64,000 bases of DNA from Sphingobacteriales bacterium (lineage in GTDB: Bacteria; Bacteroidota; Bacteroidia; Chitinophagales; JADJOU01). The notes below the pieces were generated by a model. It ran no database searches. It was not told where the DNA came from and was given only the letters and a program-made list of their open reading frames with translations. The translations under genes and the position numbers were made by a program. The stretch's first letter is position 1. Each line of letters opens with the position of its first letter. Below, one piece after another: positions 30,310-57,787 of this stretch. The stretch spans positions 6,531-70,530 of the forward strand of contig JAJTHM010000049.1 of the NCBI GenBank assembly GCA_021297855.1, given 5' to 3'.

Positions 30310-30318
30310 AATTAATAT

Positions 30319-41557: not shown

Positions 41558-41769
41558 TTAACTTGAAAATTAATTAAAAGTTAGTTAATAAATAAATTTT
41601 AGGAGCGCAAAGATAAGAAATTTAAAATGAATAAACTGTAGAAATTGATAATAACCTCTAGAACGGAACTTTTTAGGAGCTATTTCCCGCTATGCGCTTG
41701 TAGTCCTCGCTCCTTCGTCGCTGTGGGCTACCGCTCCTATCGGGGCTAGGGCATGGGATATCATACAAA

Positions 41770-44331
41770 CTACCTCACCACCTGAAAACTACCCGAATAG
41801 GTTTGTTTCACGCCATTGAGTAGTACCACCTCGGCATAGTAGCTATACATGCCAGTCTGCACTGGATGACCTTTATATGTCCCATTCCATGCAGGCTGCA
41901 TATTGGTGGCTTGATACACCTTTTCTCCCCAGCGGTTATAGACGGCGTATGTATAAGATAGGATATTGGCTACATTGGGGAAATAGGTATCATTGAGCGA
42001 ATCGCCATTCGGACTAAACGCTGTCGGAAAGCCCACTGCCCAGCTATCATATATATTGACCTTCACATCTTTATAGGCTTTGCAACCCTTTGCATCGGTA
42101 AATTCTAACTTGACTACTGCACTGCTATCTAGCTTGAATCTAACAGTTCGACAACTATCACAGCTAAAAATCTGCGACGGACTCCAGCGATACTTGCCAC
42201 CGACATCGCTTGGTTTTATTTTAGGGTTCAGTATTAACAGCTCTCCTTTATAATTACTCAGTTCATCTTCTAGAATGATCTCTGTGTCGTTATAAAAACT
42301 CAACTTAGCCGAATCAAGCCCCAAACAATTCGCCGTATCGGTATAGCTTAGCTTATACTCCCCTAGCTGAGATACCTGAATAGAAGGCGTCTGCGCTCCT
42401 GTAGTCCAGAGATAATTTATATGTCCTATCCCAGCATCGAAGACAGCATAGGAGCCTTTGCAAATAGCGGTATCCTTGAGTTTTTTAATAGGCTTGGCAT
42501 TGCGAAGAGTCAGTACTAGGGTGCGGATACTATCACAACCCTTGGCATTGAGAAAAGTATCGAGGTAAGTGCCTGCTTGTGATTCTCCCTCATAGCTATC
42601 CCCACGGCAGATTTCTTTCGTGAGAGTGAAAAAGCTCTTGGTGTTTACTGTCAGATTTAGTGTGCGAGTACTATCACAGCCATTGGCTGCTGAGAGGATA
42701 TCCGTATGGATACCAGTGGTACTATGCCCCCAGTAACTCTGTCCTTCACAGATAGTCTGGCTATAGCTCGAACTGCTAGGCTCTTTGATAGCCAGCTTAA
42801 TGACTCTGTAGGTGACACAGCCCTGTGTGCTGGTCAGCGTATCGTAGTAGGTACCTGCGGCGGTATAACCTGCTAGGCTCTGCCCTCGGCAGATAGCCGT
42901 ATCTATGAGCTGGTTTTTAGGTATCACAGTGAGGTTTAACTGGCGGATACTATCGCAGCCATTCGACCCTGTGAAGGTATCTCGATAGCTACCGGATACG
43001 GAGCGACCATAGACCGATACCCCTTCACAGACGGTAGAGTCTATCGTTTTTATATTCTGTGGTCTTACGGTCAGGGTGAGCGTATGGATGCTATCGCATT
43101 TCAGCGGGTCTGGGTAGCGAAAGACATAGCTACCTGTCGTAGTCTTCCCTAGATAGGAGCCACCGAAGCAGATCGTCTTAGTTTCACTACTGATACGAGG
43201 CGGATAGACCTCGATAGGCACGGTGAGGGAGTCGAGTAGACTCTCACAGCGGTAGCCATAGGCGATTATTTTATAGCTCTTAGTGGCACTAGGCTTGAGG
43301 CTGATTTCAGATCCACTGGCCACTGTGCGGATAGCTACCTCTGCACTCATAGGGACGACCCGCAGGCTATCATAGCCCGCACGCACCTTCACTATGGTGC
43401 TATCGCCTACACAGATTTTATACTTAATATTTCGGTCGATAAACTTCTCCGACAGGCTATAGTTTATGCAGCTATAGTCGGGGTCGTAGCGCCAGAGGTC
43501 GTTACCATAAGTAAAGTTGTAAGGATTATTAGGATCAGTATAGTCTACAACATTATAATAATTTCCCCCGAATAAATAAAGCCTATCTTGATTGTCGGAC
43601 CACATCAATGCCAACTGCCTTGCAGGAGGTTTATTGGCAGGACTCGATACGCCTTTCTGCCCATAATGATAGGTAGTGTCTCCCAGTTTACCATAGACCC
43701 ATATCCATCGATTGTCTAAAGGCTTGTAGAGCCACAAATCGTTTAAAAAAGTTAACAAATTGCCTCTTAAACCAGAATTATACCAAAGGGAATTATTACA
43801 TACTCTTGTGTTAACACTATTAGCATGATTTCTTGAACTAGGAAAAAGTCCAGGACTATCTAAACAGGGTTTACTGGAATAAACCCCAGGGTGATTGAAA
43901 CTAGCCTTGGTCTCCCCATTCAACCAAGTCCATAATCCTGTATTGATATCGTATTCCCATAATTCTGATAAATAATTATTAGAAGATAACTCTGCACCTC
44001 CAACGTAAAACAACTTACTTCCAACCACCCAGCCTGAAGTAGAACCGTACATATTTGGAGGCCAATTATTTGCATTGGCTATTCCTTTGATCCCATAGCT
44101 ATAATAGGAGCCAGGCGAAGTACTCCCTCCATGCCAAGTCCATAAACCCGTCGTCATATTATATTCCCATAGGTCGTTGCTATTCAGTATGCCATAAGAT
44201 CTCCCACCAAACATAAAAGCCTTATCACGATAACTCCAGGTAGCAGTAGAAATTTTATCCATTGGCCAATTAGACGAAGAAGCAACTCCTTTAGTGCCAA
44301 AACTCGAATAATTTATTCGATAGTCAATGAC
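41770..44331 (-). pseudogene. C-terminal 853 codons of an IS-interrupted Kelch / Cys-repeat / T9SS type-B (CHU_C, gliding-motility C-terminal) protein
   Basis: The frame is open right up to the IS boundary, and the ORF track starts it at an internal Met at 44262. It aligns by eye to residues ~180-1033 of the intact paralog at 46757..49858. It ends in FPTAFSPNGDSLNDTYFP...YNRWGEKVY...GTYKG (type-B sorting domain). Confidence 0.85.
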
Positions 44332-45556
44332 TAGTCCTGTTCGAAACCCAGTTGTGATTTAGTCAAAGCTTTGCTATATTGCTGTTCCATGAAAGTGGAA
44401 GAAATATTAAGCTACATATCAGAGAAGGAATTAGATTTTCTAGCATTAGAGACTTCGGTTGATGTACAAGTGAAAAAGCTACACGGAGCTAAGGTTTTCA
44501 AGATTATATTGTATTCTATGCTAAACTCAGATAAAGTAAGTTTGAGGGTTATGGAATCTATAATTAACTCTTCTAGGTTCAAATTCATTTCAGGAATTGA
44601 TGATTTAAATACAAAATACAATTCTATTCGAGATAGGCTTTGTACGATTAATTGTACATTTTTTGAGCGATTATTTGAGTCCGTTTTTATAAAATACAAT
44701 GAATTGCTAGAAGAGCAGTCTGCAATAACTAAAGTAGATAGTACATTTATTGGAATATCTACAAGTCTTCTTAAATGGGGTATGAAAAATGGTCAATCAG
44801 ACAAAAATAGGTTTATAAAAATGACTATTTCTCTCAAAGGGAGCTTGCCTTCCAGTGCTCAACTCTATATAGAACAATCATTTGTTAATGAAAACCTAGC
44901 ATTGGCAGATGCTATCTTAAAAAACAACCACTTGAATGATTCCATTGTAACTTTTGATAGGGGATTACAGACACGAAAAAAATTTGTAGATTTTACGGAT
45001 AAAAATATTCTGTTTGTTGCAAGAATTAAAACGGATACAGCATATAAAATAGCGAAAGAAAGAACCTTGTCTTCAAAAATCGAAAATGAAAATCTACTAA
45101 TAACTCAAGACCTAGAAATCTACTTTAAAATGAATGGTGCTTATAGAAAACAGCATACATTTAGATTAATAATTGGATACATAAAAGAAAGTAGAAAGCC
45201 AATATATTTTATAACCAATAATCTTGACCTAGAGCCAATGGAAATAGCAGAAATTTATCGTCAAAGGTGGGATATAGAAGTATTCTTTAGATATTTAAAA
45301 CAGAATTTGAACTTAAAACACATCGTGTCTCGCAATGAAAATGCAATTAAGGTAATGCTATATATGACCTTAATCTTATCTATATTGATAATTGTATACA
45401 AAAAGAAAAACAAGATAAGCAGTTACAAAATTGCCAAATTAAAATTTGAAATAGAACTTGAAAATTTTATTATGAAAGAAGTTGTAATACTATGCGGAGG
45501 AGATCCGAATAGGGCTAAGCATTTATTTAACTCATCGTAGGTTTCGAACAGGACTA
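44332..45556 (+). mobile_element. IS4-family insertion sequence (about 1.2 kb) with 17-bp perfect terminal inverted repeats and 9-bp target-site duplication
   Basis: IRL is TAGTCCTGTTCGAAACC (44332-48) and IRR is GGTTTCGAACAGGACTA (45540-56). The flanking direct repeat GTCAATGAC lies at 44323-31 and 45557-65. It contains a single transposase ORF. Confidence 0.9.
44389..45540 (+). CDS. IS4-family DDE transposase
   Basis: It has the C-terminal Y-x2-R-x3-E-x6-K signature (YRQRWDIEVFFRYLK). The ATG at 44389 (MKVEEILSY) is preferred. The stop codon abuts IRR. Confidence 0.88.
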   Translation: MKVEEILSYISEKELDFLALETSVDVQVKKLHGAKVFKIILYSMLNSDKVSLRVMESIINSSRFKFISGIDDLNTKYNSIRDRLCTINCTFFERLFESVFIKYNELLEEQSAITKVDSTFIGISTSLLKWGMKNGQSDKNRFIKMTISLKGSLPSSAQLYIEQSFVNENLALADAILKNNHLNDSIVTFDRGLQTRKKFVDFTDKNILFVARIKTDTAYKIAKERTLSSKIENENLLITQDLEIYFKMNGAYRKQHTFRLIIGYIKESRKPIYFITNNLDLEPMEIAEIYRQRWDIEVFFRYLKQNLNLKHIVSRNENAIKVMLYMTLILSILIIVYKKKNKISSYKIAKLKFEIELENFIMKEVVILCGGDPNRAKHLFNSS

Positions 45557-46087
45557 GTCAATGACTTTAAATCGTTTGGAACCAATCTCAAATTTAATTA
45601 CTAAATTACAAAAAATGCCGTTTAGAGATACTATGTTATTATAGTACCAAAGATTCCCAATACTATCCGTCCAATTTGGGAGTAAGAATCTCTCATGCGC
45701 TAACTTCATTCTTAAATTCGTTTTAAATGAATCGGGCAAGGTCCCATCGATATATAAAGTATCATAGCCTGCTTCCCAAGTCCATAGATTGCTTCGATAA
45801 TCATAAGACCATACCTCGGGAGTGTCTGTATTATTACCAGCAAATCCTCCCAATACCCAGAATTTATCAGTGGCATCTTTCCAGTTGATTCCTGAATGTA
45901 AACTTCTAGGGGGAAGGTTGGAAATAGAGGCTATGCCTTTGGTTCCTCGAGTGGTGGTATGTACACTGGACACTTGTCCTGAATATTGAGTCACCGAATC
46001 GCCATGCAGCCATGTCCATACGCCCTGCGCAGAAGTAGAGCTAACAGCTATGCTAAGAAAGAATAAGATATATAGCGAGCGTGTCAT
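45554..46087 (-). pseudogene. N-terminal fragment (signal peptide + first Kelch-like blades) of the IS-interrupted Kelch/CHU_C gene
   Basis: MTRSLYILFFLSIAVSSTSAQGVWTWLHGDSVTQ... parallels the paralog N-terminus MKFRLSILFLLTIGYHIAKGQGTWTWLHGDSVTQ. The ORF terminates at a TAG created at the duplication/IRR junction. Confidence 0.85.
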
Positions 46088-46140
46088 GATTGAACTCTAG
46101 AGTCTAGTACAAAGATAGTGAATAAGCTTCCAAAATTAAA

Positions 46141-46446
46141 TCATTCAGTATCCATCAGTCTATTCTCAAAATCCATTTTCTCATGCAAGACCCTAATAAT
46201 TTCTATCTTCTTTGACTCGTTTATCTTGTAAAAAATGATATGTGATTTTACTTTCGATGATCTGTAGCCCAACCGAATATAGTCTATAGACTTACCTGAA
46301 TTAGGATTGTGCGATAGGTAATTTATCTCTTGTATAATCAGAAGATAATATCTATCCGCCTGCTCCAACGACCATTTTTCAAGCGTGTATATCCATATCT
46401 CATCGATATCTTTTAAAGCTAATTCACTGATTGAATATGAACTCAC
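46141..46446 (-). CDS. parE: type II toxin, ParE/RelE family
   Basis: ALKDIDEIWIYTLEKWSLEQADRYY...NPNSGKS...RSSKVKSHIIFYKI..KKIEIIRVLHEKMD is the canonical ParE pattern. It overlaps the upstream antitoxin gene by 4 nt. Confidence 0.85.
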   Translation of the reverse strand: MSSYSISELALKDIDEIWIYTLEKWSLEQADRYYLLIIQEINYLSHNPNSGKSIDYIRLGYRSSKVKSHIIFYKINESKKIEIIRVLHEKMDFENRLMDTE

Positions 46447-46688
46447 TTGCTATATTTATCGTGAAGAGACTGGAGATGTGAGTCTGAATTAAAATCGTGG
46501 ATTTGTGGGCTATTTTCACCTAAAACTAACTCATCTATGAGAAAACTTGATTTTTTAAGATCTAATTCCAATAAACGCAAAGCCGAATTAATGACCTCTG
46601 AGGTAGAGCTGTATTTCCCACTTTCCACTTCCCTTTTAATAAAATTCTCGTAATAACTGCTTAGTTCAATTTTAGTGTCTAATTCCAT
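46443..46688 (-). CDS. parD: type II antitoxin, ParD (COG3609, RHH) family
   Basis: FIKREVESGKYSSTSEVINSALRLLE is the hallmark ParD1 motif. At 81 aa, it lies directly upstream of parE. Confidence 0.8.
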   Translation of the reverse strand: MELDTKIELSSYYENFIKREVESGKYSSTSEVINSALRLLELDLKKSSFLIDELVLGENSPQIHDFNSDSHLQSLHDKYSK

Positions 46689-46756
46689 ACCTTTTTATTT
46701 AATACAAAAATAAGCCATATTATTTTATTAAACCTCTTTCATAGAGCTCCTTGTTG

Positions 46757-49700
46757 TCATCTCACCAGATGAAATGTCCCCGCATAAGTCCTTCGAGCCT
46801 GATTTAAGAGGATGACCTCGGCGAAATAGCTGTATGAACCCAGTGGAACTGCTTCTCCCTTATAGCTTCCATCCCATTTCTGCTGGAGATTATCAGAGGC
46901 ATAGACCTTCTCGCCCCATCGGTTATAGATAGCTATGTTATAGGATAAAATGTTTTCTACGTTAGGAAAATATTCATCATTCGTGCCATCCCCATTCGGA
47001 CTGAAGGCGGTAGGAAAACCCACGGCCCAGCTATCGTAGATATTGACCACAACATCCTTATAGGCTTTACAGCCCTGTGCATCAGTGAATTCTAACCGCA
47101 CCACAGCACTATTATCTAGCTTGAATTTAGCTGATCGACAACTATCGCATTGGAATATATGCGAAGGACTCCAGCGATACTTGCCACCAACATCGCTTGG
47201 TTTTATCTGTGGGTTGAGGAGGAGAAGCTCTCCCTTATAGTTGCTTATCTCATCTTCCAGGATGATTTCTGTATCATTATGATATTTTACTTTGGCAGAA
47301 TCTCTCCCTTTGCAATTCGCCGTATCGGTAAAGCTCAGTTTATATTCCCCTTCATTCTTTACTAGAATAGATGGCGATAATTCTCCCGTGCTCCAGAGAT
47401 AGTCTCTATGCCCTAACCCTGCATCTAGGATAGCTTCAGAACCTCGACAGATAGCGGTATCCTTTAGTTTTTTTATGATTCTAGGATTGCGAAGTGTGAG
47501 GACGAGAGTCCGAATACTATCACAACCCACAGCATTAAGAAGAGTATCGAGGTAAGTGCCTGCTTGGGTTTTTCCTTCATGGCTTTCGCCACGGCAGATT
47601 TCTTGGTTGAGGGTGAAATAACTCTTTTTGTTTACGGTGAGATTTAGTGTTCGGGTGCTATCACAGCCATTCGAAGCGGTGAGGATATCGCTATGCGTGC
47701 CTGTAGTGCTATGCCCCCAATAACTCTGTCCCTCGCAGATAGCTTGGGTATAGCTCGAACTGCTAGGCTCTTTGATAGTGAGCTTAATGACTCTGTAGGT
47801 GACACAGCCCTGTGTGCTGGTCAGCGTATCGTAGTAGGTACCTGCGGCGGTATAACCTGCTAAGCTCTGCCCTCGGCAGATAGCGGTGTCTATGAGCTGG
47901 TTTTTAGGTATCACAGTGAGGTTTAGCTGGCGGATACTATCGCAGCCATTCGACCCTGTGAAGGTATCTCGATAGCTACCGGATACAGAGCGACCATAGA
48001 CCGATACCCCTTCACAGACGGTAGAGTCTATCGTTTTTATATTCTGCGGACGCACGGTGAGGTAGAGGGTATGCACACTATCGCATTTCAGGGGGTCTGG
48101 ATAGTTATAGCTATACGTGCCACTCGTATTCTTACCCATATAGCTGGCACCATAGCAGATAGTCTTAGTTTCTGAGCTCGTGCGGGGAGGACTCACTACG
48201 ATAGGCACTGTGAGGGAGTCGAGCTGACTCTCACAGCGGTAGCCATAGGCGATTATTTTATAGCTCTTATTCGCTGTAGGCTTGAGCCAGATTTCTGCAC
48301 CTCCTGCCACTGTGCGGATACTGACATCGCTACCAGTAGGTATGACTCGAAGGCTATCATAGCCCGCTCGCACCTTGACCACCGTACTATCTCCTACACA
48401 GATTTTATACTTTATATTCCGATCGATAAACTTCTCCGACAGGCTATAATTTATGCAGCTATAGTCGGGGTCGTAGCGCCACATATCGTTACCAAATGCA
48501 TAGTTACCAGGGAGTGTAGGATCTGAATAATCCATCACATTATACTCTCTCCCTCCGAATAGATAAAGCCTATCTTGATTATCGGACCACATCATTGCAA
48601 AAGTTCTCGCTGGTGGTTTATTGACTAGGTTGGATACTCCTTTTTGACCATAATTATAGGTGGTATCTCCGAGCTTTCCATAAACCCACATCCATCTATT
48701 TTCATTCGGCTTATAGAGCCAGAGGTCGTTAAAAAAACTATTGGATGTACCAGTATAATCCGTACCCGAATAATACCACATAGAATTATTACATACCCTC
48801 GTACTGACACTATTAGCCTGTACCCTCGATGCTGGAAATAAACCTGGGCTATCGACACAAGTCTGACTGGAATAGACACCTGGATGGTTCGGGCTGGTAT
48901 TCGTCACCCCGCTGAGCCAAGTCCATAAACCTGTGCTCACATCATATTCCCATAACTCAGATAATTGATACCCAATAGTTGGCTCTTGATAAAGACCCCC
49001 CACATAGTATAATTTTGACCCCTTGACCCAGCTTGCCTTTGATGCATAATTGCCAAGAGGCCAATTGGATGCAGAGGCTACTCCTTTAGTACCATAGCTA
49101 TAATAACACGGAGGACAGGCACCTCCTCCATGCCAGATCCATTGACCAGTAGTCATATTATACTCCCATAATTCATTTGTGCTAGTAGAAGTATCTTTAC
49201 TGCCCCCAAATAAAAAAGCACGATGCTGATATGTCCAGCAAACTGCACCCCACTTTCTTTGAGGCGGCCAATTAGAAGAAGAACTTACGCCTTTACTGCC
49301 ATAACTTGAATAATTCATGCGATAGTCAATAACGCTAAACCTCTTAGAAACAACATCAAACTTGATAATCAAAGTACAATAAGTAAAATTAGTAAAAATT
49401 TGATGAAAATACCATAAATTTCCAAGGCTATCTGACCAGTAAGGACTTTCTAAATAATTCATTGTTTTTCTTAATAATGGTAGAAAAGAATCAGGCAGTG
49501 AGCCGTCGATATACATCGTATCATAGCCAGCCTCCCATGTCCAGCTATTCGTACGATAATTATATGACCAGACTTCGAAGGTATCCAGTATAGTGGAGCT
49601 CGAAACTGGTCTGCGACTACCTAGTATCCAGAACTTATCCTTGGCGTCCTTCCAATTGAGTCCATACCATAGGGTACGAGGAGGAGAGTTTGTACTGGCT

Positions 49701-49858
49701 TCTACTCCTTTCATACCTCGGACTGCCTTTACCGCATTATAAATAGAACCATTAAACTGAGTCACCGAATCGCCATGCAGCCATGTCCAGGTACCCTGAC
49801 CCTTGGCTATATGGTAGCCAATAGTCAGTAGGAATAGTATGGATAGGCGAAACTTCAT
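46757..49858 (-). CDS. secreted Kelch-repeat / five-fold Cys-repeat / T9SS type-B (CHU_C) C-terminal-domain protein (intact paralog)
   Basis: It has a signal peptide. The Kelch-like blades are repeated (NELWEYNMTTGQWIWHGG, SELWEYDVSTGLWTWLSG, NDLWLYKPNENRWMWVYG, NDMWRYDP). There are five ~45-aa repeats, C.G.SY.G....GTY.DT.....GCDS..TL.LTV. The C-terminus FPTAFSPNGDGTNDEYFP...YNRWGEKVY is the gliding-motility C-terminal domain. Confidence 0.88.
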   Translation of the reverse strand: MKFRLSILFLLTIGYHIAKGQGTWTWLHGDSVTQFNGSIYNAVKAVRGMKGVEASTNSPPRTLWYGLNWKDAKDKFWILGSRRPVSSSTILDTFEVWSYNYRTNSWTWEAGYDTMYIDGSLPDSFLPLLRKTMNYLESPYWSDSLGNLWYFHQIFTNFTYCTLIIKFDVVSKRFSVIDYRMNYSSYGSKGVSSSSNWPPQRKWGAVCWTYQHRAFLFGGSKDTSTSTNELWEYNMTTGQWIWHGGGACPPCYYSYGTKGVASASNWPLGNYASKASWVKGSKLYYVGGLYQEPTIGYQLSELWEYDVSTGLWTWLSGVTNTSPNHPGVYSSQTCVDSPGLFPASRVQANSVSTRVCNNSMWYYSGTDYTGTSNSFFNDLWLYKPNENRWMWVYGKLGDTTYNYGQKGVSNLVNKPPARTFAMMWSDNQDRLYLFGGREYNVMDYSDPTLPGNYAFGNDMWRYDPDYSCINYSLSEKFIDRNIKYKICVGDSTVVKVRAGYDSLRVIPTGSDVSIRTVAGGAEIWLKPTANKSYKIIAYGYRCESQLDSLTVPIVVSPPRTSSETKTICYGASYMGKNTSGTYSYNYPDPLKCDSVHTLYLTVRPQNIKTIDSTVCEGVSVYGRSVSGSYRDTFTGSNGCDSIRQLNLTVIPKNQLIDTAICRGQSLAGYTAAGTYYDTLTSTQGCVTYRVIKLTIKEPSSSSYTQAICEGQSYWGHSTTGTHSDILTASNGCDSTRTLNLTVNKKSYFTLNQEICRGESHEGKTQAGTYLDTLLNAVGCDSIRTLVLTLRNPRIIKKLKDTAICRGSEAILDAGLGHRDYLWSTGELSPSILVKNEGEYKLSFTDTANCKGRDSAKVKYHNDTEIILEDEISNYKGELLLLNPQIKPSDVGGKYRWSPSHIFQCDSCRSAKFKLDNSAVVRLEFTDAQGCKAYKDVVVNIYDSWAVGFPTAFSPNGDGTNDEYFPNVENILSYNIAIYNRWGEKVYASDNLQQKWDGSYKGEAVPLGSYSYFAEVILLNQARRTYAGTFHLVR

Positions 49859-49885
49859 AATAGACTGGCGCTGGTTAGATGCTAA

Positions 49886-52800
49886 TTATTCCTCGGATAT
49901 GGTTAATTTCTTGGTCAAGCTCAAGCCCAATGGGTGGTAAATCTGCACAATATAATTGCCAATAGGCAGCTGAGTTTGCACTTCTACATGTTTATTTTTC
50001 AGTGCTTGATTAGCCGAATAGACCCTCCTACCCGTCAGTTCCGAAATATGGACTTCTACATATTCTATCTCTACAGATATCTCATCAAAAGCCAATCTAA
50101 ATTCCCCTCTATTTGGATTGGGATAGAGCTGACAGCTAGGATTCAAAGCCTGTTCTTTTTTATTTGCACCCGCTAATTTAGGGAGGTTGCAGATAAGTTT
50201 ACAATTATCATCCACAGCAGGTGCAGTCAAAGGAGTAAATCCGCTAGGTAATGTACCTGGATAATAACTAAAACTAGGTGCGAAAGGAGGATTAGACGTA
50301 CAGAAAGGAAAAGGAGCAATGCAGCCCAATGGCCACGCGCTAAAACTTAATCCTCCCAAACTAATATCTACAGGAGGTCCAGAGTTATTATTTATAAAAT
50401 TAGCCGCTAGCATACTACAATAAAATTTATTGGACAGCCCTCGAATGACGGAACCACCTGTATAATTCTGGAATACTGCTCCAAACTCTTTAGATACAAA
50501 ATTATTAGTCAGCAATTCGAAATTGGTATGGGCTCCATCGTGATAGGTACCTGCCTGGGTATAGAGGTCGTTGCAGCTCAGTTTGAGATTGTTAGGGGTA
50601 TTGGTTCTTATTCCTATAGGGGAGGAATTGGTAGCAAAAGCCCCACTTATTGCTCCAGTAGTAGTCACACCGTGGCTAGTGAGATAGCCCATATAGATGG
50701 TATTGCCTTCCGCATTATAGTTTTGAACAGTCTGTAAATAGATACCAGCATGGGTAAAACTCGAAGTGGTATTAAATATAGCGAGATTGTTATTTTTTAC
50801 AAAATAACGGTTGGTATTCGAGCTGCCATTCACATTATTGATATGTATGCCATAGCGCGAGTATTTCACTGTGAGGTTGTTATTTGCTATTTCATTGAGG
50901 GTATTGTTAGCCATATTGACATTGGAGCCAGTGATGGTTAATAGCGCACCACTTGTATTAGCTGAGCCCCCACTAGGTAAGTCATCATTGATAAAATTAT
51001 TCTTGACATGAATGATATCATTCGCTTTAGCAGTAATATGAATAGGAATCTTAGCAGTGATGGTATTATTTGTTATTTTGGATTCTACAGCAGCAGTGCT
51101 CGTTCGCTCTATGCGGATAGCGGTTTCAGGGAGGTTGTTTATTATGATACTATTCATGTCTAGGTTCATATCTTGCGCATAGACACCGTGTCTTACATTT
51201 TGCATATCCTGTAACCAAGTGCCATAGCCATTGATAGTGAGCTTATCGCCTGTACTGGCACTTCCTGTGCCATAAATAGCATAGCCATAAAGTGCAAAGC
51301 TGGAGGGAGTAGGAATAGAACCAATGCCCAGATTTTCAAATTTACAGTCGGTGATGATGCGGTGACCTTTGTGGGTCAGTATTCCATTAGCCATATTTTT
51401 GAAATAATTGGGGCTTGGGCTTGAGCCTATACCTATGCTAGAAAAGCTAAAGCTGCCGTTATGATTCAGGACAGTAGCTGCATAGCTACCCCAGTTGGAG
51501 GCGTTATAGCTTTTTTCTAAAGTGGATATCAAACTACTTGGATAAAAGGCAGCACTATAGGGCTTTATTGTTACAGCTCCTTCAAATCGATTGCCAGAGA
51601 AATATTCAGGAATAAAAGGACCTAATGCTGAGATTCTCGTTTGGTCAAGGTTGATGTGCGGCGCATTGATTCGAATACCTATAAAATTATTCCTGAACGT
51701 ATTGCCACTCATAGGCAGATAAAAATTTCCTGCAGTATGCCCTATTGCGGGCTCTATAGCTATGGCTGCATACATATCTTCCAGCGTAGAATTCTGCGGA
51801 TAAAAATAATCTCCGGCCTGGGTCATCACGATACCTCTCGCCATAAAATCGCCGCAGGTGTGGATGGTAGAGTTTATCAGCTGCATACCAGCTTGCGCAG
51901 ACGGGCTGGCGATGGTCGTTTTTTGTCCCATAGTGGTATAGACCATATCGCAGTTAGTTAAAGTCCATGGCTTGGTTATAGTAAAGTCATTGGCAAATCT
52001 CAATATGGAATTGGAATATGAAGTCTGAAACCCAGGAGTATTGTCTGATGTCGCAGAAATTAATTCGATATTGGGGTCAACTTGAAATCTTCTACTGCAT
52101 CCATTAGCATCAGTTACTTCTAGAATGTATGAACCAACATTCACATAGGTATTGCCTGTATGCAAAACGGTATTGCCCGTCAATCCAAACCATTTATAGT
52201 TATAGTCGGCTTGACCTCCGCTCGCCGTAGCTATATATTCTACATATAAGAGCGAAGAATGAGTAAAACAATTTACTAATTTTCGCTTAATAGAAACCTC
52301 TATAGGTGAGGTGTTATTGACCGTATAGGATTGAGATGAGGTGCATCCAAAATTGTCTGTAGCCGTCACAGTATAGCTCTGACTGGCTCCTATTGGATCT
52401 AGATTGGTTAAATCCTGTGTAGTAGCTCCATTACTCCATAAATAGGTATAGCTGTGGATAGGTGCTAATGCAATGTCTATAGCGCCTAGATTATTCCCTG
52501 TGGTGGTGCATGTCCTATGTGTTATGTTGGACGTATAGGTAGGTGGTCTTGAGAATTTAATATCTTGGGTTGCACGCTGAGTACATTGATTTCTTGTAAT
52601 GTCTACATCTATTTTAGAGGTATAGATACCATTAGCGGATGTGTAGTTAATGATTTGTGTCGTCGAATTGCCAAAATAAGGCTGAGATGTTAAGTTTTCT
52701 TTCCAAATATAATTAGAACCATTTGATGGCGTAGCATTCATAGTAATGTTGCCTCCTGTACAGGTAAGTATAGGATTCGCAGCCAAGGAAGGTGTAAAGC

Positions 52801-52948
52801 CATTATTTAGCCATATAGGTGTCAATAGATTTATAGGTGGGCAGGTAACCAGTGGATCGGTTGTGGATAATTCTGAATTTAGAACTAATGGGCATTTGTT
52901 TGTAGTTACTACCGGAAGCTGAACAGTCGTACACGCACTCGAGGCCAA
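49886..52948 (-). CDS. C-terminal segment (SprB-like repeats, parallel-beta-helix-like region, T9SS type-A CTD) of a large split adhesin-like gene
   Basis: It has no signal peptide, and a TTG is the only available start. It carries a SprB-type repeat (C..TGNNLGAIDIAL....YTYLWSNGATTQDL...YTVTATDNFGC) and long N/G/T/I-rich beta-helix-like repeats. It ends LYPNPNRGEFRLAF...GNYIVQIY...KKLTISEE (type-A sorting domain). Its frame stays open upstream to 53071. Confidence 0.7.
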   Translation of the reverse strand: MASSACTTVQLPVVTTNKCPLVLNSELSTTDPLVTCPPINLLTPIWLNNGFTPSLAANPILTCTGGNITMNATPSNGSNYIWKENLTSQPYFGNSTTQIINYTSANGIYTSKIDVDITRNQCTQRATQDIKFSRPPTYTSNITHRTCTTTGNNLGAIDIALAPIHSYTYLWSNGATTQDLTNLDPIGASQSYTVTATDNFGCTSSQSYTVNNTSPIEVSIKRKLVNCFTHSSLLYVEYIATASGGQADYNYKWFGLTGNTVLHTGNTYVNVGSYILEVTDANGCSRRFQVDPNIELISATSDNTPGFQTSYSNSILRFANDFTITKPWTLTNCDMVYTTMGQKTTIASPSAQAGMQLINSTIHTCGDFMARGIVMTQAGDYFYPQNSTLEDMYAAIAIEPAIGHTAGNFYLPMSGNTFRNNFIGIRINAPHINLDQTRISALGPFIPEYFSGNRFEGAVTIKPYSAAFYPSSLISTLEKSYNASNWGSYAATVLNHNGSFSFSSIGIGSSPSPNYFKNMANGILTHKGHRIITDCKFENLGIGSIPTPSSFALYGYAIYGTGSASTGDKLTINGYGTWLQDMQNVRHGVYAQDMNLDMNSIIINNLPETAIRIERTSTAAVESKITNNTITAKIPIHITAKANDIIHVKNNFINDDLPSGGSANTSGALLTITGSNVNMANNTLNEIANNNLTVKYSRYGIHINNVNGSSNTNRYFVKNNNLAIFNTTSSFTHAGIYLQTVQNYNAEGNTIYMGYLTSHGVTTTGAISGAFATNSSPIGIRTNTPNNLKLSCNDLYTQAGTYHDGAHTNFELLTNNFVSKEFGAVFQNYTGGSVIRGLSNKFYCSMLAANFINNNSGPPVDISLGGLSFSAWPLGCIAPFPFCTSNPPFAPSFSYYPGTLPSGFTPLTAPAVDDNCKLICNLPKLAGANKKEQALNPSCQLYPNPNRGEFRLAFDEISVEIEYVEVHISELTGRRVYSANQALKNKHVEVQTQLPIGNYIVQIYHPLGLSLTKKLTISEE

Positions 52949-53022
52949 ACTAGGAATGGTATATTCATACCAGTTTCCACCTATCGCCGTCCAGCCCGAT
53001 GGCAGCGGGAAAGGATTAAATA

Positions 53023-54870
53023 TTAATGGGTTAAGTATGTTTTTATTTTTATATCCGTTACTGTATTCGGATTATGGTTACATACTTCCGAATAAATATT
53101 ATCATTCATTGTCCCCGGAGAATTGACTGCAAATTGACTCAGCGTTAAATCTTTTTGATACAAATCTATCGCTGCGCTCTCTTGACAGCCATTGGCATAG
53201 GTCAAGGTTACGGTGTAGCTTCCAGGCGCACTGGTTGTTACGGTAGAGTTTGTTCCTAGATTAAATGGAAAATTCATCCAATCATAATCAGTAATATCAG
53301 GATTAGTCACAGAGAGAGTCACAGGCACACCCTGACATATATCTGTAGAAGGAGAAGCTACTATCACATCATTATAGGGAGGCTGTATAGAAGCCGTAAA
53401 ACTAGCCATACACTCTCCTATAGACTCTTCGTGAAAGCATCTCACTTCGTATGTGCCTCCATCAAACCCGCATATATCCAGTTCACAAGTCGTAGCTCCT
53501 ACTATGAGATTATTATCCTTATACCATTCAAATCGTTTATTTCCTAATACTAATCTTTCATTCACTTTTAATGTTAAACATTCACCGTTGCAGAGAGGAA
53601 TATTAGTTAAACTGGCTAATGGGGTCGTAGAGGTACTAGGCTTAAATGCTTGCAATTCCTCGAAATAGGGGCAAGTAGTTTCATCTAAGTCATCTTGAAT
53701 ATCTTCTGGACACCAGTGCTTATAATCTTCTTTATATCGAACTAAACAGCCCGCATCTGCCACAGGATTTGTGAAAGATCTCACTTCAAAATTTAAAGTT
53801 TCATTTAAATTTTCTTCGACTCTCTCCGCCTCGTATGCTCCGACAACTAACTCTATAGGAAATAAAACGTCGCATGGGGTTGCTAAATTCAGATTTTGAG
53901 TTGTCAGTTCTAACAAATTAATAGTATTCATAGATATACCTTGTGATTGGGTACCAGGTATACCGTTGGATAGCTCTGCTGTAGATGCCATATAGAAGGT
54001 ATTATTTGTGTTATTATAAGTAAATACCCTATAATTTGTATTAACAAAACTATTCGACTTTTGCAAGGGGGCAATAGTCTCTACATCTTTGTGCCCTCTA
54101 GTGTTCATTGCCCCATAATTATTCAAAGTTGGAGAAGTATAGTCAACGAGTACCGTGAAATCTCTAATTGTTGGTTGTGTTCCAAGAGGAGGAATAGCGT
54201 AAAAATAGCCTCCAATGGCATAATATTGATTATCTATTACTCTTATTGTAGAAAACTGCGCGAAGCCTGCGACCGGAGTATTAGTCATACGGTTTAGTAT
54301 AGAAAATTGGTCAAAAGTATTATGCAATGTCCGATTAAGATTAGCGTCGAATCTCATAACGCCACCCTTTCCAGCTCCAGGATGGTGGGACATATATACT
54401 ACGTATAGTTCGCCAGCATGCTCCGACATATTAAGAAACATTATCTCAGGATTCATAAATGAACCAAATCCTGGTATAGGAACCAATCCATTATATTTAA
54501 TCGTTAGACCGTCGCTCCATCTGCCAATAATTGGTTGTTCATTATGTTGACCACAGAAGTATATATCTCCATTAAAATCAATAATATCATTAATAAATCC
54601 TTGACTAGGGACAGGAGGCATAGTTCTTACTTCAACTGCGGCGCATCCTGTTGTCGAGATACATGTGTTATCACTAGTTAAATAGCCTGCTGGAATTCGC
54701 GCAACGAAAGGGCTACTCATTCGTAATCCATCGTGTATAAAACCAGAAGCATAAAGATCTCCGCGAGCTTCCAAAACCTTTGTTACAACTACAGCAGACA
54801 TTGTTGAACCTACTGAAACAAGGAAAGGAGTTAACAGAATATGGATATCACGGTTAATTGAATTATCCAT
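53023..54870 (-). CDS. middle segment of the split adhesin-like gene
   Basis: The 615-aa ORF has no signal peptide or sorting domain. The C-terminal third has Ig/PKD-like Cys-containing repeats (GTYEVRC, GSYTVTLTYANGC). Its frame is open upstream to 54927, into the preceding ORF. Confidence 0.65.
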   Translation of the reverse strand: MDNSINRDIHILLTPFLVSVGSTMSAVVVTKVLEARGDLYASGFIHDGLRMSSPFVARIPAGYLTSDNTCISTTGCAAVEVRTMPPVPSQGFINDIIDFNGDIYFCGQHNEQPIIGRWSDGLTIKYNGLVPIPGFGSFMNPEIMFLNMSEHAGELYVVYMSHHPGAGKGGVMRFDANLNRTLHNTFDQFSILNRMTNTPVAGFAQFSTIRVIDNQYYAIGGYFYAIPPLGTQPTIRDFTVLVDYTSPTLNNYGAMNTRGHKDVETIAPLQKSNSFVNTNYRVFTYNNTNNTFYMASTAELSNGIPGTQSQGISMNTINLLELTTQNLNLATPCDVLFPIELVVGAYEAERVEENLNETLNFEVRSFTNPVADAGCLVRYKEDYKHWCPEDIQDDLDETTCPYFEELQAFKPSTSTTPLASLTNIPLCNGECLTLKVNERLVLGNKRFEWYKDNNLIVGATTCELDICGFDGGTYEVRCFHEESIGECMASFTASIQPPYNDVIVASPSTDICQGVPVTLSVTNPDITDYDWMNFPFNLGTNSTVTTSAPGSYTVTLTYANGCQESAAIDLYQKDLTLSQFAVNSPGTMNDNIYSEVCNHNPNTVTDIKIKTYLTH

Positions 54871-54907
54871 TTCATATTGTTTTATCAGTCCAGAGCCTTG
54901 TCTACCA

Positions 54908-55300
54908 TTATATAAGAGGCCCCCCAGTTAACATTCTATTCCCATTTGAAAGAACAGTACTTACAACTTGAGCACCCGCAGGTCCCTGAGTGACCAGATC
55001 CATATATCCATATTTAATCTCTCTTGTCCAGTGCTGATTTAGATCTTGCTGGTGAACTTTAATAAATTTCCTATTGAGTGTTAAATCATTAATAGTAGAA
55101 GATGAATTTACAAAATTTCCATCTTGGGAGACATCAGAATGTTGCATATAATAGTCCGGACTGGGCGTAATTCCAAAAGGTGGGGTCTGACCCCAGTTAG
55201 TCCCATAATGATAATTATCTAAAGTAGGATTGTTACAACCTTGCCCATTATACTGGGCAACAAAGAAATTAATTAAAAATAAACATGCGATTTTTTTCAT
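54908..55300 (-). CDS. N-terminal segment (Sec signal peptide) of the split adhesin-like gene
   Basis: The ATG at 55300 gives MKKIACLFLINFFVAQYNGQ, a clear signal peptide. The ORF ends 13-18 nt after a G6 run on the coding strand (C6 at 54920-25 on the + strand). Confidence 0.6.
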   Translation of the reverse strand: MKKIACLFLINFFVAQYNGQGCNNPTLDNYHYGTNWGQTPPFGITPSPDYYMQHSDVSQDGNFVNSSSTINDLTLNRKFIKVHQQDLNQHWTREIKYGYMDLVTQGPAGAQVVSTVLSNGNRMLTGGPLI

Positions 55301-55543
55301 AAGATTGGTTTTTTTAGGTTTATGCATTAACACAAAGATAAAGGATAGAAATTTAATATTCAACACTATAATTTATCTTGTAAAATATTCCACTTCCCCC
55401 TAATCCTTCCTAGTCATCTATACTAAGTTAAAAAATAACTAGCATACCCAGCTTGCTAAAATATCTATCTAAAATTCACGTTCTCATAATGTTATTGGAG
55501 TCACAAGGCTCTTATTTTTTAACCCTTTAAAAATTTTACTACC

Positions 55544-56278
55544 ATGACAGCATTTATCGAAACTGGTCACGCCAGAAATCTCTCGAGTTTACAGCAGTTG
55601 ATAGCAGCCTCTATAGGATATGGATCAGCTTATGCACCCTCGGTCACTAATCTTTCTATCACAGAACTCACCACATGTCATACGAATGGTCAGGCACTTT
55701 TAGCTGATGTATTAGCTAAAAAGACGGACTATCGGGCAGCTATCAATATGCGTATAGAGGCATTTGCACTTCTTCGAAAAAAATCTACTCGAATTTTAAA
55801 CGCACTAAAAGCCTCTGGTGCTAGTGCTGAGGTAGTAGCGAACGCTAGAGAGTATCATCGCAAGATACAAGGAAGCCGAGCTTCCAAGCCACCCACTAGC
55901 TCGCCAGACCCCAATGCACCAGTCCCTAAAACCATTAGTAATAGTCAACAGTCCTTTGATCAGCTCATACAGCATCTCGCTGGGTTGATATCCGTAGTCA
56001 ATATAGCGGCTACATATGCCCCCAATGAAACTGATCTCAAGGTAGCGAGTCTGAACACATATAAGTTAGATTTGGATTCTAAAAACTCAGATGTCAATAC
56101 GACCTATGTCGCCGTCACTAACGTTCGGTTAGCGCGTGATAAAAAAATGTATTCCGACTCAGATAGTGCTTATATTCGATTCACTGCGGTAAAATCTTAC
56201 ATCAGATCGGTATTCGGTGCTACAAGTTCAGAATACAGGCAGATCAGCGTACTAGCCTTCAAAAAACCAAAAAACTAA
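55544..56278 (+). CDS. hypothetical protein (no recognisable domain)
   Basis: It is a 244-aa ORF with an ATG start and is the only + strand gene in this neighbourhood. It is followed 20 nt later by a strong intrinsic terminator. Its Ala/Ser/Thr-rich composition is unlike neighbouring genes. Confidence 0.55.
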   Translation: MTAFIETGHARNLSSLQQLIAASIGYGSAYAPSVTNLSITELTTCHTNGQALLADVLAKKTDYRAAINMRIEAFALLRKKSTRILNALKASGASAEVVANAREYHRKIQGSRASKPPTSSPDPNAPVPKTISNSQQSFDQLIQHLAGLISVVNIAATYAPNETDLKVASLNTYKLDLDSKNSDVNTTYVAVTNVRLARDKKMYSDSDSAYIRFTAVKSYIRSVFGATSSEYRQISVLAFKKPKN

Positions 56279-56299
56279 CTCCCTTTGTCATCACTATTC

Positions 56300-56329
56300 G
56301 GCAGGTATTGATTTACCTGCCTTTTTTTT
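56300..56329 (+). terminator. intrinsic terminator of the 244-aa ORF
   Basis: The structure is GGCAGGTA-TTGATT-TACCTGCC followed by T8. Confidence 0.8.
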
Positions 56330-56784
56330 GCCCCGCCATATTTGCATCAGATGGAGATTTAGGATAGCAGCTTCCATATACCAGTTACCGAGTCTTCCAT
56401 TTTGCCCTCTGCTGTCAGTAAATTAGCTCTAGCACATAATATAGAGCATGGAGTAGACTGCATTTTCCTGTTCGCTCATCTTATAATATTCTCCTCTAGG
56501 CTCATTTGACTTCCCGCCTTACGTATCTATTTATAAGCCATACATATTATCATACTCACATAATGTATACTACTTACCGCCACATGCATTCACCTTCCCG
56601 CACAGTGTATTTTTATATCTGCAGCATTTACTAGCCCATGCGCTGTGTCTATTCTTGTTATTTTTAGGGATATAGTGTCTTCCGCTACCTTTATTCACTC
56701 GCATTCATGGTATATTCCAGCCAGTGCTTGTTTTGGGGAGTCTCTTTATGCAGCTATGGCTGTTTACTTAGCATAGTGATTGTC

Positions 56785-56820
56785 AGACTTCCCGAAAGCT
56801 TCTAAACTTTCGGGAAGTCT
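56785..56820 (-). terminator. 14-bp perfect hairpin immediately 3' of batA (terminator-like, no U-tract)
   Basis: AGACTTCCCGAAAG (56785-98) pairs with CTTTCGGGAAGTCT (56807-20) around an 8-nt loop. It lies 17 nt downstream of the batA stop. Neither strand has a T-run, so its function is uncertain. Confidence 0.45.
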
Positions 56821-56836
56821 AGTACGACAAATAAGT

Positions 56837-57784: not shown

Positions 57785-57787
57785 ACC

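What the first reader, a model, noticed from the sequence alone, without database searches (positions are those of the whole stretch)
49886..55300. One ~1,800-aa T9SS adhesin-like gene split into three ORFs by opposite frameshifts, each at a homopolymer run
Seen, the three back-to-back minus-strand ORFs:
- ORF1 (55300-54908) supplies the only Sec signal peptide (MKKIACLFLINFFVAQ).
- ORF2 (54870-53023) has neither a signal nor a sorting domain.
- ORF3 (52948-49886) has only a TTG start and no signal peptide, but carries the T9SS type-A CTD.

Seen, junction 1:
- ORF2's frame is open upstream to 54927, and ORF1 stops at 54908-10.
- The 17-nt window where both frames are open contains a G6 run (C6 at 54920-25 on the + strand).
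- Removing one G reads ...NRMLTGG-LLYNGRQGSGLIKQYE-MDNSINRD... straight through.

Seen, junction 2:
- ORF3's frame is open upstream to 53071, and ORF2 stops at 53023-25.
- The shared window contains ATAAAAATAAAAACA on the coding strand (T5 at 53040-44 and 53046-50 on the + strand).
- A -1 shift there joins ...NTVTDIK to NKNILNPLIFNPFPLPSGWTAIGGNWYEY....

Established: T9SS cargo needs an N-terminal Sec signal and a C-terminal CTD on the same polypeptide.

Inference, three possibilities:
- A single gene interrupted at two slippery homopolymers, either phase-variable by slipped-strand mispairing or newly decaying.
- Homopolymer sequencing or assembly errors.
- Transcriptional or translational slippage, which I consider less likely.
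Basis: partly seen in the sequence, partly recalled or inferred. Interest (0 to 1): 0.65.

Follow-up and report, generated by a model that had tools for sequence, protein, structure and literature searches.

The report
Frameshift-broken T9SS surface-protein gene
Three back-to-back reading frames are the pieces of one ~1,800-residue secreted surface-protein gene, broken by two real single-base slips at short base runs and seen identically in many independent metagenome assemblies, so this is an ordinary, recently inactivated gene and not a sequencing error or a proven on/off switch.

Summary
Three minus-strand ORFs (55300-54908, 54870-53023, 52948-49886) overlap in open frame at a G6 run and at an A5-T-A5 motif. 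Removing one G and adding one A gives one 1,804-aa ORF.

The single-gene reading is strongly supported. Five homologues of 1,471-2,095 aa are single polypeptides that align straight through both junctions. P0001 comes from a syntenic locus (P0055's locus was not fetched).

Assembly error is rejected. Twelve fetched contigs from NCBI MAGs, JGI metagenomes and Logan SRA assemblies carry the same G6 and/or A5/A5. They are at least 99.98% identical in aligned bases.

Phase variation and recoding are unlikely:
- The tracts are short.
- They are absent from the orthologue checked (P0001's locus L001).
- No revertant allele is on record.
- No stimulatory RNA structure follows either site.
- Two independent corrections would be needed.

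The best reading is a recent pseudogene, fixed in a near-clonal population, inside a variable island between a VWA gene and rpsP. In the same island a Kelch/CHU_C paralogue is split by an IS. Close relatives lack the island. One natural variant carries an extra 22-nt deletion in ORF2. This is an ordinary finding of low interest.

The parts
54908..55300 (-). Fragment 1 (130 aa). It holds the N-terminal Sec signal peptide MKKIACLFLINFFVA|Q and the first ~127 residues of the ancestral protein. It ends in 3 out-of-frame codons (PLI) and TAA.
   Evidence: It aligns to residues 1-~135 of P0001/P0055 and to the N-termini of P0064/P0094/P0113. All homologues have a hydrophobic N-terminus followed by Q (sequence inspection).
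54920..54925 (-). Junction-1 lesion: a G6 run on the coding strand, inferred to be G5 plus one inserted G. It is the only G/C run of 6 or more in the gene.
   Evidence: P = 0.0014 for a 20-nt window. Removing one G gives LTGGLL-Y, which matches ITGGLxN-Y in P0064/P0094. G6 is present in all 10 fetched contigs that cover this site.
53023..54927 (-). Fragment 2: the open frame at +1 (called ORF 54870-53023, 615 aa). It covers the rest of the family-specific N-terminal region and an Ig/PKD-like domain. It has no signal peptide and no sorting domain.
   Evidence: Residues 1-613 align to 151-766 of P0055. The conserved G-L-I-K-x-[FY]-[ED] lies upstream of the called ATG, and that ATG aligns to F, I or L in the homologues. 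Ig_7/PKD hits at residues 505-566 are weak.
54396..54417 (-). A 22-nt segment that is deleted in one natural variant (L017), creating a third frameshift there.
   Evidence: L017 is a JGI 3300057150 contig of 1,442 nt. The deletion is internal to the contig, there are 0 mismatches elsewhere, and the same G6 is present.
53040..53050 (-). Junction-2 lesion zone: ATAAAAATAAAAACA on the coding strand, with one A missing. The second A run (53040-53044) is the likelier site.
   Evidence: The family pattern N-V-x-[VLI]-x-T-x-L fits DIKIKNIL (repair in the second run) better than DIKNKNIL. A5/A5 is present in all 10 fetched contigs that cover this site.
49886..53071 (-). Fragment 3: the open frame back in frame 0 (called ORF 52948-49886, 1020 aa, TTG start). 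It holds SprB-type repeats, a long Asn-rich repetitive region and the C-terminal sorting domain.
   Evidence: G-W...Y-x-[FY]-x-I-P is conserved upstream of the TTG. The SprB-type repeat region, repaired residues ~920-1075, is the only part shared with P0002-P0006.
49901..50128 (-). T9SS type-A C-terminal sorting domain (ORF3 residues 941-1016).
   Evidence: PF18962 at E 2.6e-5 and 24.9 bits, below the gathering score of 27. The aligned homologues P0001, P0113 and P0094 score 38.6-41.4 bits.
55333..55340 (-). Possible Bacteroidota -7 promoter box, TATCTTTG, 33 nt upstream of the ATG.
   Evidence: L001 has TATCTTTA at a similar position. This is weak evidence: the motif occurs 98 times in the window against 76 expected.
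41626..56836 (.). Variable island between the VWA/BatA-like gene (57784-56837) and rpsP (41557-41000). It contains a 244-aa ORF, the split gene, an intact Kelch/CHU_C gene, a ParE toxin gene and an IS-disrupted Kelch/CHU_C paralogue.
   Evidence: The island is absent in L011-L016 and present in L001, where the orthologous gene is one 1,835-aa ORF (the island's other genes there were not examined for integrity).

Best explanation
The three ORFs are the remains of one gene for a ~1,800-residue type IX secretion (T9SS) cargo protein. Its layout is a Sec signal peptide, a family-specific N-terminal region, an Ig/PKD-like domain, SprB-type repeats, a long repetitive region and a type-A C-terminal sorting domain.

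Two single-base replication slips broke it. One G was added to a G5 run (now G6, 54920-54925). One A was lost from an A run, most likely A6 to A5 at 53040-53044.

Both changes are real. They are fixed in a nearly clonal natural population of a Chitinophagales/Sphingobacteriales-type bacterium known from metagenomes.

The signal peptide is now on a 130-aa stub and the sorting domain is on a signal-less 1,020-aa fragment. No product can be both exported by Sec and handed to the T9SS, so the gene is functionally off. In practice it is a young pseudogene.

It lies in a variable surface-protein island that is decaying in this lineage and has been lost in close relatives.

Shown: the single-gene origin, the reality and fixation of the lesions, the island context and the lack of rate acceleration. 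Inferred: the direction of each indel, the loss of function and the absence of any compensating recoding.
For: Single gene:
- P0001 (1,835 aa) aligns over 100% of the repaired protein at 41% identity, through both junctions.
- Its locus has the same neighbours: VWA gene, divergent 244-aa ORF, Kelch/CHU_C gene, rpsP.
- P0055, P0064, P0094 and P0113 are also single polypeptides spanning both sites.
- Conservation runs upstream of both called internal starts.

Real lesions:
- The exact ORF1, ORF2 and ORF3 proteins occur in four NCBI MAGs plus JGI, Logan and ENA assemblies.
- The ORF2 look-up reports 21 contigs read.
- Nine fetched contigs differ from the window by at most one base over up to 9.8 kb (eight are identical, L005 has one SNP outside the gene) and carry the same G6 and, where covered, A5/A5.
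- Three variant contigs also keep the lesion they cover.

Recent event:
- There are no other stops in 5.4 kb.
- Tajima relative-rate tests show no acceleration against the intact orthologues (p 0.13-0.65).

Decay context:
- A Kelch/CHU_C paralogue in the same island is split by an IS with 27-nt terminal inverted repeats and a DDE transposase.
- The island is missing in relatives whose VWA protein falls in the same 90%-identity cluster.
- One natural variant has an additional 22-nt frameshifting deletion in ORF2.
Against: - Assemblies give only the majority state. A minority of cells with corrected tract lengths would be invisible here.
- Apart from the two lesions the 5.4 kb is perfectly open, and a promoter-like box is still in place. 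That is also what a reversible 'off' state would look like.
- No synonymous/non-synonymous test was possible, because the population shows almost no variation.
- The 22-nt deletion rests on a single short metagenome contig.
- Loss of function is inferred from T9SS biology, not measured.
Confidence: 0.78

Rival explanations
1. Slow, reversible gene silencing (phase variation in the broad sense). Slipped-strand mispairing at the G6 and A5 runs would toggle the surface protein off and, rarely, on again. The sampled population would be in the off state.
For: - Junction 1 sits exactly on the gene's only G/C run of 6 or more (P = 0.0014).
- Both lesions are 1-nt changes at runs.
- The rest of the gene and a promoter-like box are intact.
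- Short tracts do revert at measurable rates elsewhere. A 7G tract frameshifts at about 3e-8 per generation in M. smegmatis, and reversible frameshift 'scars' are described in M. tuberculosis (PMC10334774).
Against: - G6 and A5 are shorter than tracts that, from general knowledge, give high-frequency switching (about 7-8 G/C or more, 9 A/T or more). The 64-kb window has no G/C run of 7 or more.
- All 12 fetched contigs show the same lengths.
- None of 8 predicted single or double revertant proteins is in the 15-billion-protein collection.
- The orthologue L001 has no tract at either site, so the tracts are not a maintained device.
- Two independent reversions would be needed.
- A variant with a further, non-reversible 22-nt deletion exists.
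Confidence: 0.12
2. Homopolymer sequencing or assembly error. The organism would really have one intact ORF.
For: Both lesions are 1-nt length changes at homopolymers, which is the classic error signature of some platforms. The source is a metagenome-assembled genome.
Against: - The same two lesions appear in assemblies made by different groups and pipelines: four NCBI MAG accessions, at least five JGI metagenomes, at least four Logan SRA runs, and ENA.
- Those contigs are at least 99.98% identical elsewhere.
- No intact version is on record.
- No other obviously frameshifted gene pair was seen among the window's long ORFs (a coarse check).
Confidence: 0.04
3. Programmed recoding. A +1 ribosomal shift (or RNA polymerase slippage) at ACU GGG GGG CCU CUU AUA UAA, followed by a -1 shift at A AAA A, would produce some full-length protein.
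For: - GGG is the rarest Gly codon here (8.4 per 1000), and tandem GGG GGG allows tRNA re-pairing in the +1 frame.
- The G-rich run, 3-nt spacer and CUU loosely recall the prfB +1 site (from general knowledge).
- AAA preceded by A allows a -1 re-pairing.
Against: - The orthologue checked (L001) has neither a frameshift nor a slippery sequence at these positions, and all five homologues are single polypeptides.
- There is no significant downstream RNA structure (z -1.1 and -1.3).
- The stop codon is not adjacent to CUU, and AUA is a common codon (28 per 1000).
- There is no canonical X XXY YYZ heptamer at junction 2.
- Runs of 5-6 bases are short for transcriptional slippage.
- Two inefficient events in series would give negligible yield.
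- Bacteroidota make little use of Shine-Dalgarno pairing (general knowledge).
Confidence: 0.03
4. Gene fission: the three ORFs are now independent, functional genes.
For: - Gene callers, and the NCBI records that hold them, list the pieces as three separate hypothetical proteins.
- Each ORF has a possible start codon.
Against: - The ORF2 ATG and the ORF3 TTG fall inside conserved coding sequence and align to non-start residues in all homologues.
- ORF2 and ORF3 lack signal peptides, so the sorting domain on ORF3 is unusable.
- No homologue has this split.
- A natural variant truncates ORF2 further.
Confidence: 0.02

Closest known systems
Frameshift pseudogenes of surface-protein genes arising by slippage at short homopolymers (ordinary bacterial gene decay)
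   Same: - One-nucleotide indels at mononucleotide runs.
- Intact orthologues exist elsewhere.
- The lesions are fixed in a clone.
- A neighbouring gene is hit by an IS.
- Relatives have deleted the region.
   Different: Nothing essential. The only unusual points are that two opposite-sign lesions lie 1.88 kb apart, and that the gene is otherwise pristine.
Contingency loci / phase-variable outer-membrane proteins (poly-G tracts in Neisseria, Campylobacter, Bordetella; PMC1891110, PMC8355987)
   Same: The gene encodes a surface protein, and a G tract inside the reading frame determines the frame.
   Different: - The tract is only 6 nt and there is a second lesion at an A5 run.
- No tract-length polymorphism is seen among assemblies.
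- The tract is not conserved in the orthologue L001.
Reversible frameshift silencing and 'frameshift scars' in Mycobacterium tuberculosis (PMC10334774; Gupta & Alland 2021, cited therein)
   Same: - Short homopolymer indels silence a gene in a clonal lineage.
- There are two frameshifts of opposite sign.
   Different: In a scar, the second frameshift restores the frame within a short distance. Here the 1.88 kb between the lesions is the correctly framed, conserved sequence, so the two lesions do not compensate for each other. Each is independently disruptive.
T9SS type-A CTD cargo with SprB-type repeats (large Bacteroidota cell-surface proteins)
   Same: - N-terminal signal peptide.
- Ig/PKD-like and SprB-type repeats.
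- C-terminal Por_Secre_tail domain.
- Neighbouring T9SS cargo genes.
   Different: - About 520 N-terminal residues and about 600 residues before the CTD match no Pfam family or PDB sequence.
- Only five full-length relatives were found.
- SprB itself carries a type-B CTD (general knowledge).
- An adhesin function is untested.
prfB +1 and dnaX -1 programmed ribosomal frameshift sites
   Same: - A G-rich run lies 3 nt upstream of a CUU codon near a stop (like prfB).
- An AAA codon is preceded by A (partly like dnaX).
   Different: - The sites are not conserved.
- There is no adjacent stop or hungry codon.
- There is no heptamer and no stimulatory structure.
- Two events would be required.

Membership tests
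T9SS type-A CTD cargo protein | C-terminal Por_Secre_tail domain (PF18962 / TIGR04183) | tested here: inconclusive
   The window copy scores PF18962 E 2.6e-5 at 24.9 bits, below the gathering score of 27. TIGR04183 gives no hit at E < 0.01. The aligned homologues P0001, P0113 and P0094 score 38.6-41.4 bits, above threshold. The ancestral gene is therefore a member, and this copy is a sub-threshold relative.
T9SS type-A CTD cargo protein | N-terminal Sec signal peptide on the same polypeptide as the CTD | tested here: not met
   The signal-like N-terminus is on the 130-aa ORF1 only. The CTD is on ORF3, which starts at an internal TTG with no hydrophobic N-terminus. The feature is met only in the repaired 1,804-aa reading. 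No signal-peptide predictor was available, so the signal call rests on sequence inspection.
T9SS type-A CTD cargo protein | Host encodes a T9SS | not testable with these tools
   No core T9SS gene was identified in the window. Indirect support comes from three other CTD-bearing ORFs in the window: CHU_C at 49858-46757 and 44262-41770, and TIGR04183 above its cutoff at 27169-25529.
Phase-variable contingency locus (slipped-strand mispairing) | Hypermutable tract of sufficient length inside the ORF or promoter | tested here: not met
   The tracts are G6 and A5/A5 only. There is no G/C run of 7 or more in 64 kb. The length thresholds come from general knowledge of Neisseria and Campylobacter loci.
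Phase-variable contingency locus (slipped-strand mispairing) | Tract-length polymorphism among strains or within populations | tested here: not met
   Ten of 10 contigs covering junction 1 have G6, and 10 of 10 covering junction 2 have A5/A5. Eight predicted revertant proteins are absent from the collection. Read-level heterogeneity could not be tested.
Phase-variable contingency locus (slipped-strand mispairing) | Tract maintained in orthologues | tested here: not met
   L001 reads ACA GGT AGT TAT GGA at junction 1 and has no A run at junction 2.
Programmed ribosomal frameshift / transcriptional slippage site | Frameshift and slippery motif conserved among orthologues | tested here: not met
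   All five homologues are single polypeptides. There is no slippery sequence in L001.
Programmed ribosomal frameshift / transcriptional slippage site | Stimulatory element (downstream structure, adjacent stop or rare codon) | tested here: not met
   Downstream folds have z -1.11 and -1.28. The codon after CUU is AUA, a common codon at 28 per 1000. The stop is one codon further on.
Recent pseudogene | Reading frame disrupted relative to intact, syntenic orthologue; lesion real, not an artefact | tested here: met
   Searches show the intact orthologues and, for P0001, synteny. Searches show the same lesions in independent assemblies.
Recent pseudogene | Relaxed selection or further lesions | tested here: inconclusive
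   One natural variant carries an extra 22-nt deletion, but it is a single short contig. Relative-rate tests show no acceleration, which is consistent with a very recent event. dN/dS is not computable because the population is nearly invariant.
SprB-like gliding adhesin | Arrays of SprB repeats (PF13573) and a type-B CTD | tested here: not met
   PF13573 scores E 0.09 in ORF3. In P0001 it scores 26.3 bits, below the gathering score of 28. Only about two repeat units (residues ~920-1075) are shared with repeat-rich proteins. The CTD is type A, not type B.

The most novel reading that the evidence does not exclude
The double lesion may not be dead DNA. It could be a slow, reversible 'off' state, or a state leaky through low-level +1/-1 recoding, for a costly or phage/grazer-exposed surface protein, swept to fixation in a free-living freshwater Bacteroidota clone. 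That would extend homopolymer-based gene silencing from host-associated pathogens to planktonic environmental bacteria and to T9SS cargo.
Probability: 0.1. Interest if true: 0.5.

Novelty: new member of a known kind. Interest (0 to 1): 0.2.

Why it matters
The value is mainly practical.

- Annotation: public MAG records list these three pieces as separate 'hypothetical proteins'. They should be merged and flagged as one frameshifted pseudogene of a T9SS cargo family.
- Method: looking up exact fragment proteins across independent assemblies separated a real frameshift from a homopolymer assembly error without access to reads.
- Biology: this is a small, clean example of surface-protein turnover in a variable island of an uncultured freshwater Bacteroidota lineage. 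The island shows a frameshifted gene, an IS-split paralogue and complete deletion in relatives. That pattern matches the general picture of flexible-genome decay and loss of exposed proteins. It does not open a new question.

Tried and rejected
- Scan of one genome per species (genome contigs) with conserved peptides of the family found no relative. The island is probably absent from the representatives.
- The metagenome-contig scan found only one short contig, L002, identical to the window.
- AlphaFold2 on the N-terminal 560 residues, using a 2-sequence alignment, was meant to show whether junction 1 splits a folded domain. The model was unusable (mean pLDDT 29.5), so no fold search was run.
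- A sequence search of the PDB with the family profile gave nothing meaningful (best E 0.084).
- P0002-P0006 from the first homologue search were rejected as orthologues. They share only the SprB-type repeat segment.
- Exact look-ups of 8 predicted revertant or intact alleles were all absent.
- An exact look-up of the IS transposase, to see whether the IS is multi-copy, found nothing on record. The start codon may have been called differently.
- A literature search for the sample accessions, to learn the habitat, gave no hits. 'Freshwater' is therefore my guess from the style of the sample names, not a result.
- dN/dS within the population is impossible, because contigs are 99.98-100% identical.
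- The idea that the second frameshift compensates for the first ('frameshift scar') was rejected. The 1.88 kb between them is in the conserved, correct frame.
- The coarse scan for other abutting open frames in different frames flagged only short overlaps typical of operons. These were not examined one by one.

Full report
**1. Observation**

- 54908-55366, with the ATG/MKK start at 55300.
- 53023-54870, 615 aa.
- 49886-52948, 1,020 aa, TTG start.

Open stretches between stop codons are 54908-55372, 53023-54927 and 49886-53071. Neighbouring frames therefore overlap by 20 nt at junction 1 and 49 nt at junction 2.

The first overlap holds a G6 run on the coding strand (+ strand C6, 54920-54925). 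The second holds ATAAAAATAAAAACA (+ strand T5 at 53040-44 and 53046-50).

ORF1 and ORF3 share a frame and ORF2 is at +1. Deleting one G and inserting one A yields a single 1,804-codon ORF.

The window has only six G/C runs of 6 or more and none of 7 or more. The only one inside this gene sits in the 20-nt junction-1 overlap, with chance P = 0.0014. An A/T run of 5 or more lies in 28% of random 49-nt windows, so the homopolymer association at junction 2 is weak on its own.

**2. One gene**

A homologue search with the repaired protein found P0001. It is 1,835 aa, 41% identical, and covers 100% of the query in one alignment that runs through both junctions.

Its locus, L001, lies on a 2.25-Mb JGI contig and is syntenic. 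The order is VWA/BatA-like gene, divergent 244-aa ORF, the large gene, Kelch/CHU_C gene, rpsP.

A full-library HMMER search with ORF2 added four more:
- P0055, 1,817 aa.
- P0064, 1,471 aa.
- P0094, 2,065 aa.
- P0113, 2,095 aa.

In these, ORF2 residue 1 aligns near residue 150-180. Each carries an ORF1-like N-terminus, and all but the shorter P0064, which ends early, an ORF3-like C-terminus.

The multiple alignment shows three things:
- The repaired junction-1 peptide LTGGLL-Y matches ITGGLxN-Y in P0064 and P0094.
- The conserved G-L-I-K-x-[FY]-[ED] lies between the frameshift and the called ORF2 ATG. That ATG aligns to F, I or L in the homologues.
- G-W...Y-x-[FY]-x-I-P is conserved upstream of the ORF3 TTG.

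The family pattern N-V-x-[VLI]-x-T-x-L favours repair in the second A run (DIKIKNIL), which implies an A6-to-A5 loss at 53040-53044.

The other first-round hits, P0002-P0006, share only a SprB-type repeat segment at residues ~920-1075.

**3. Real lesions or assembly error**

The exact ORF1, ORF2 and ORF3 protein sequences are present in several sources:
- Four NCBI MAG records, annotated as Chitinophagales or Sphingobacteriales bacterium.
- JGI/IMG, Logan and ENA assemblies, on 8-15 contigs each.

The ORF2 look-up read 21 contigs (28 index blocks). The eight loci it returned come from three NCBI MAGs, three JGI metagenomes and two SRA runs, and all show the 130/615/1,020 split.

Nine fetched contigs, including the independent metagenome contig L002, differ from the window by at most one base over up to 9.8 kb: eight are identical and L005 has a single SNP outside the gene. 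They have G6 and, where covered, A5/A5. Two further Logan contigs differ by one SNP and keep A5/A5.

A random homopolymer error cannot recur identically across pipelines and samples. I reject the artefact reading (about 4% residual).

**4. Phase variation**

The evidence argues against a switch:
- The tracts are short.
- None of eight predicted revertant proteins is in the 15-billion-protein collection. These were ORF1+2 fused with G5 or G8, ORF2+3 fused with A6 in either run, and full length with either repair.
- The orthologue L001 has no run at either site (ACA GGT AGT TAT GGA, and no A run).
- Two independent reversions would be needed.

For scale, a 7G tract frameshifts at about 3e-8 per generation in M. 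smegmatis (PMC10334774). Reversion is therefore possible but slow.

Assemblies cannot exclude a minority 'on' subpopulation. I keep about 12% for a slow reversible off state.

**5. Recoding**

Downstream RNA folds are not unusual (z -1.1 and -1.3).

The junction-1 context is ACU GGG GGG CCU CUU AUA UAA. It loosely recalls the prfB site. However, the stop is not adjacent to CUU, AUA is a common codon (28 per 1000) and only GGG is rare (8.4 per 1000).

Junction 2 lacks an X XXY YYZ heptamer. Neither site is conserved. Two inefficient events in series would give negligible product. I assign about 3%.

**6. Context and age**

The gene sits in a roughly 15-kb island between the VWA gene (57784-56837) and rpsP (41557-41000).

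Relatives whose VWA protein falls in the same 90%-identity cluster lack the island. L011-L013 have only a 200-aa ORF there, and L014-L016 go straight to rpsP.

Flanking DNA is 67-90% identical to those relatives, while the large protein is only 41-43% identical to its orthologues. It is therefore a fast-evolving, dispensable surface protein.

In the same island:
- A second Kelch/CHU_C (T9SS type-B) gene is split into an N-terminal fragment (46087-45557) and an 830-aa C-terminal ORF (44262-41770).
- The split is caused by a 1.24-kb IS (44322-45566) with 27-nt terminal inverted repeats and a DDE_Tnp_1 transposase.
- A ParE toxin gene lies at 46446-46141.

One natural variant, L017 from JGI 3300057150, carries the same G6 plus an internal 22-nt deletion (54417-54396) that frameshifts ORF2 again.

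Tajima relative-rate tests of the repaired protein against P0001 or P0055, with three outgroups, show no acceleration (p 0.13-0.65). There are no further stops in 5.4 kb. The lesions are therefore recent relative to the gene's divergence.

**7. What the protein is**

- Signal peptide: MKKIACLFLINFFVA|Q. All homologues also place a Q after the hydrophobic segment. This fits the Bacteroidota 'Q-rule' for signal peptidase I substrates, which I cite from my own knowledge.
- About 520 residues with no Pfam or PDB match.
- An Ig_7/PKD-like domain (weak).
- Two SprB-type repeats.
- About 600 Asn-rich repetitive residues. P0094 has a faint NosD/beta-helix hint at E 0.07.
- A type-A CTD. It is sub-threshold here (24.9 bits against 27) but scores 38.6-41.4 bits in homologues.

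'Adhesin' is plausible but untested.

Other T9SS cargo in the window supports a T9SS host. The machinery itself was not seen.

**8. Verdict**

This is one T9SS cargo gene, recently and genuinely inactivated by two opposite 1-nt homopolymer indels. The lesions are fixed in a near-clonal environmental population, within a decaying variable island.

It is an ordinary pseudogene and a new member of a known kind. It is useful for annotation and of low general interest.

Noticed in passing
window 41770-46087 (IS at 44322-45566): A second Kelch/CHU_C (T9SS type-B CTD) paralogue is interrupted by a 1.24-kb insertion sequence. The IS has 27-nt terminal inverted repeats (96% complementary) and a DDE_Tnp_1 transposase (44371-45540, +). 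The N-terminal fragment is 46087-45557 and the C-terminal ORF is 44262-41770.
   Followed up: yes
window 46141-46694: A ParE-family toxin ORF (46446-46141, Pfam E 5e-18) is preceded by an 84-codon open frame (46694-46443) that could be its antitoxin. The pair lies inside the variable island, between the two Kelch/CHU_C genes.
   Followed up: partly
window 41626-56836 versus L001, L011-L016: The whole block between the VWA/BatA-like gene and rpsP is a variable island. In L001 the orthologous gene is one intact ORF. In L011-L013 the block is replaced by an unrelated 200-aa ORF. In L014-L016 it is absent. L014-L016 instead carry a DNA-methylase/NOV_C cluster further downstream.
   Followed up: partly
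L017 positions 661-698 (window 54396-54417): One JGI metagenome contig (3300057150) has an extra 22-nt deletion inside ORF2 and is otherwise identical to the window. It is either a real subpopulation with a third lesion or an assembly glitch between near-repeats (ATGTCGGAGCAT / ATGTCCCACCAT).
   Followed up: partly
window 28138-30648: A 723-aa ORF matches the ~1,076-residue fused isobutyryl-CoA mutase/GTPase IcmF at 1,125 bits, below the equivalog cutoff of 1,500. Its best stretch covers only model positions 695-1076. A 110-codon open stretch lies directly upstream in the same frame, separated by a stop. This may be a truncated or differently organised mutase gene.
   Followed up: no
window 25529-27169: Another ORF (546 aa) carries a T9SS type-A sorting domain above NCBIfam's cutoff (TIGR04183, 30.7 bits against 23). 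The organism therefore uses both type-A and type-B CTD cargo.
   Followed up: no
window 49023-58870 versus L003-L010, L018-L019: Contigs from at least 11 different samples or assemblies are 99.98-100% identical to the window over up to 9.8 kb. This indicates a very clonal, widely re-sampled population, or repeated sampling of one site. The habitat could not be established.
   Followed up: partly
The word-indexed homologue search did not return the window's own ORF1, ORF2 or ORF3 clusters, although they are in the collection. Near-identical relatives may therefore be hidden from that tool. Absence of close intact alleles was checked by exact look-up instead.
   Followed up: yes
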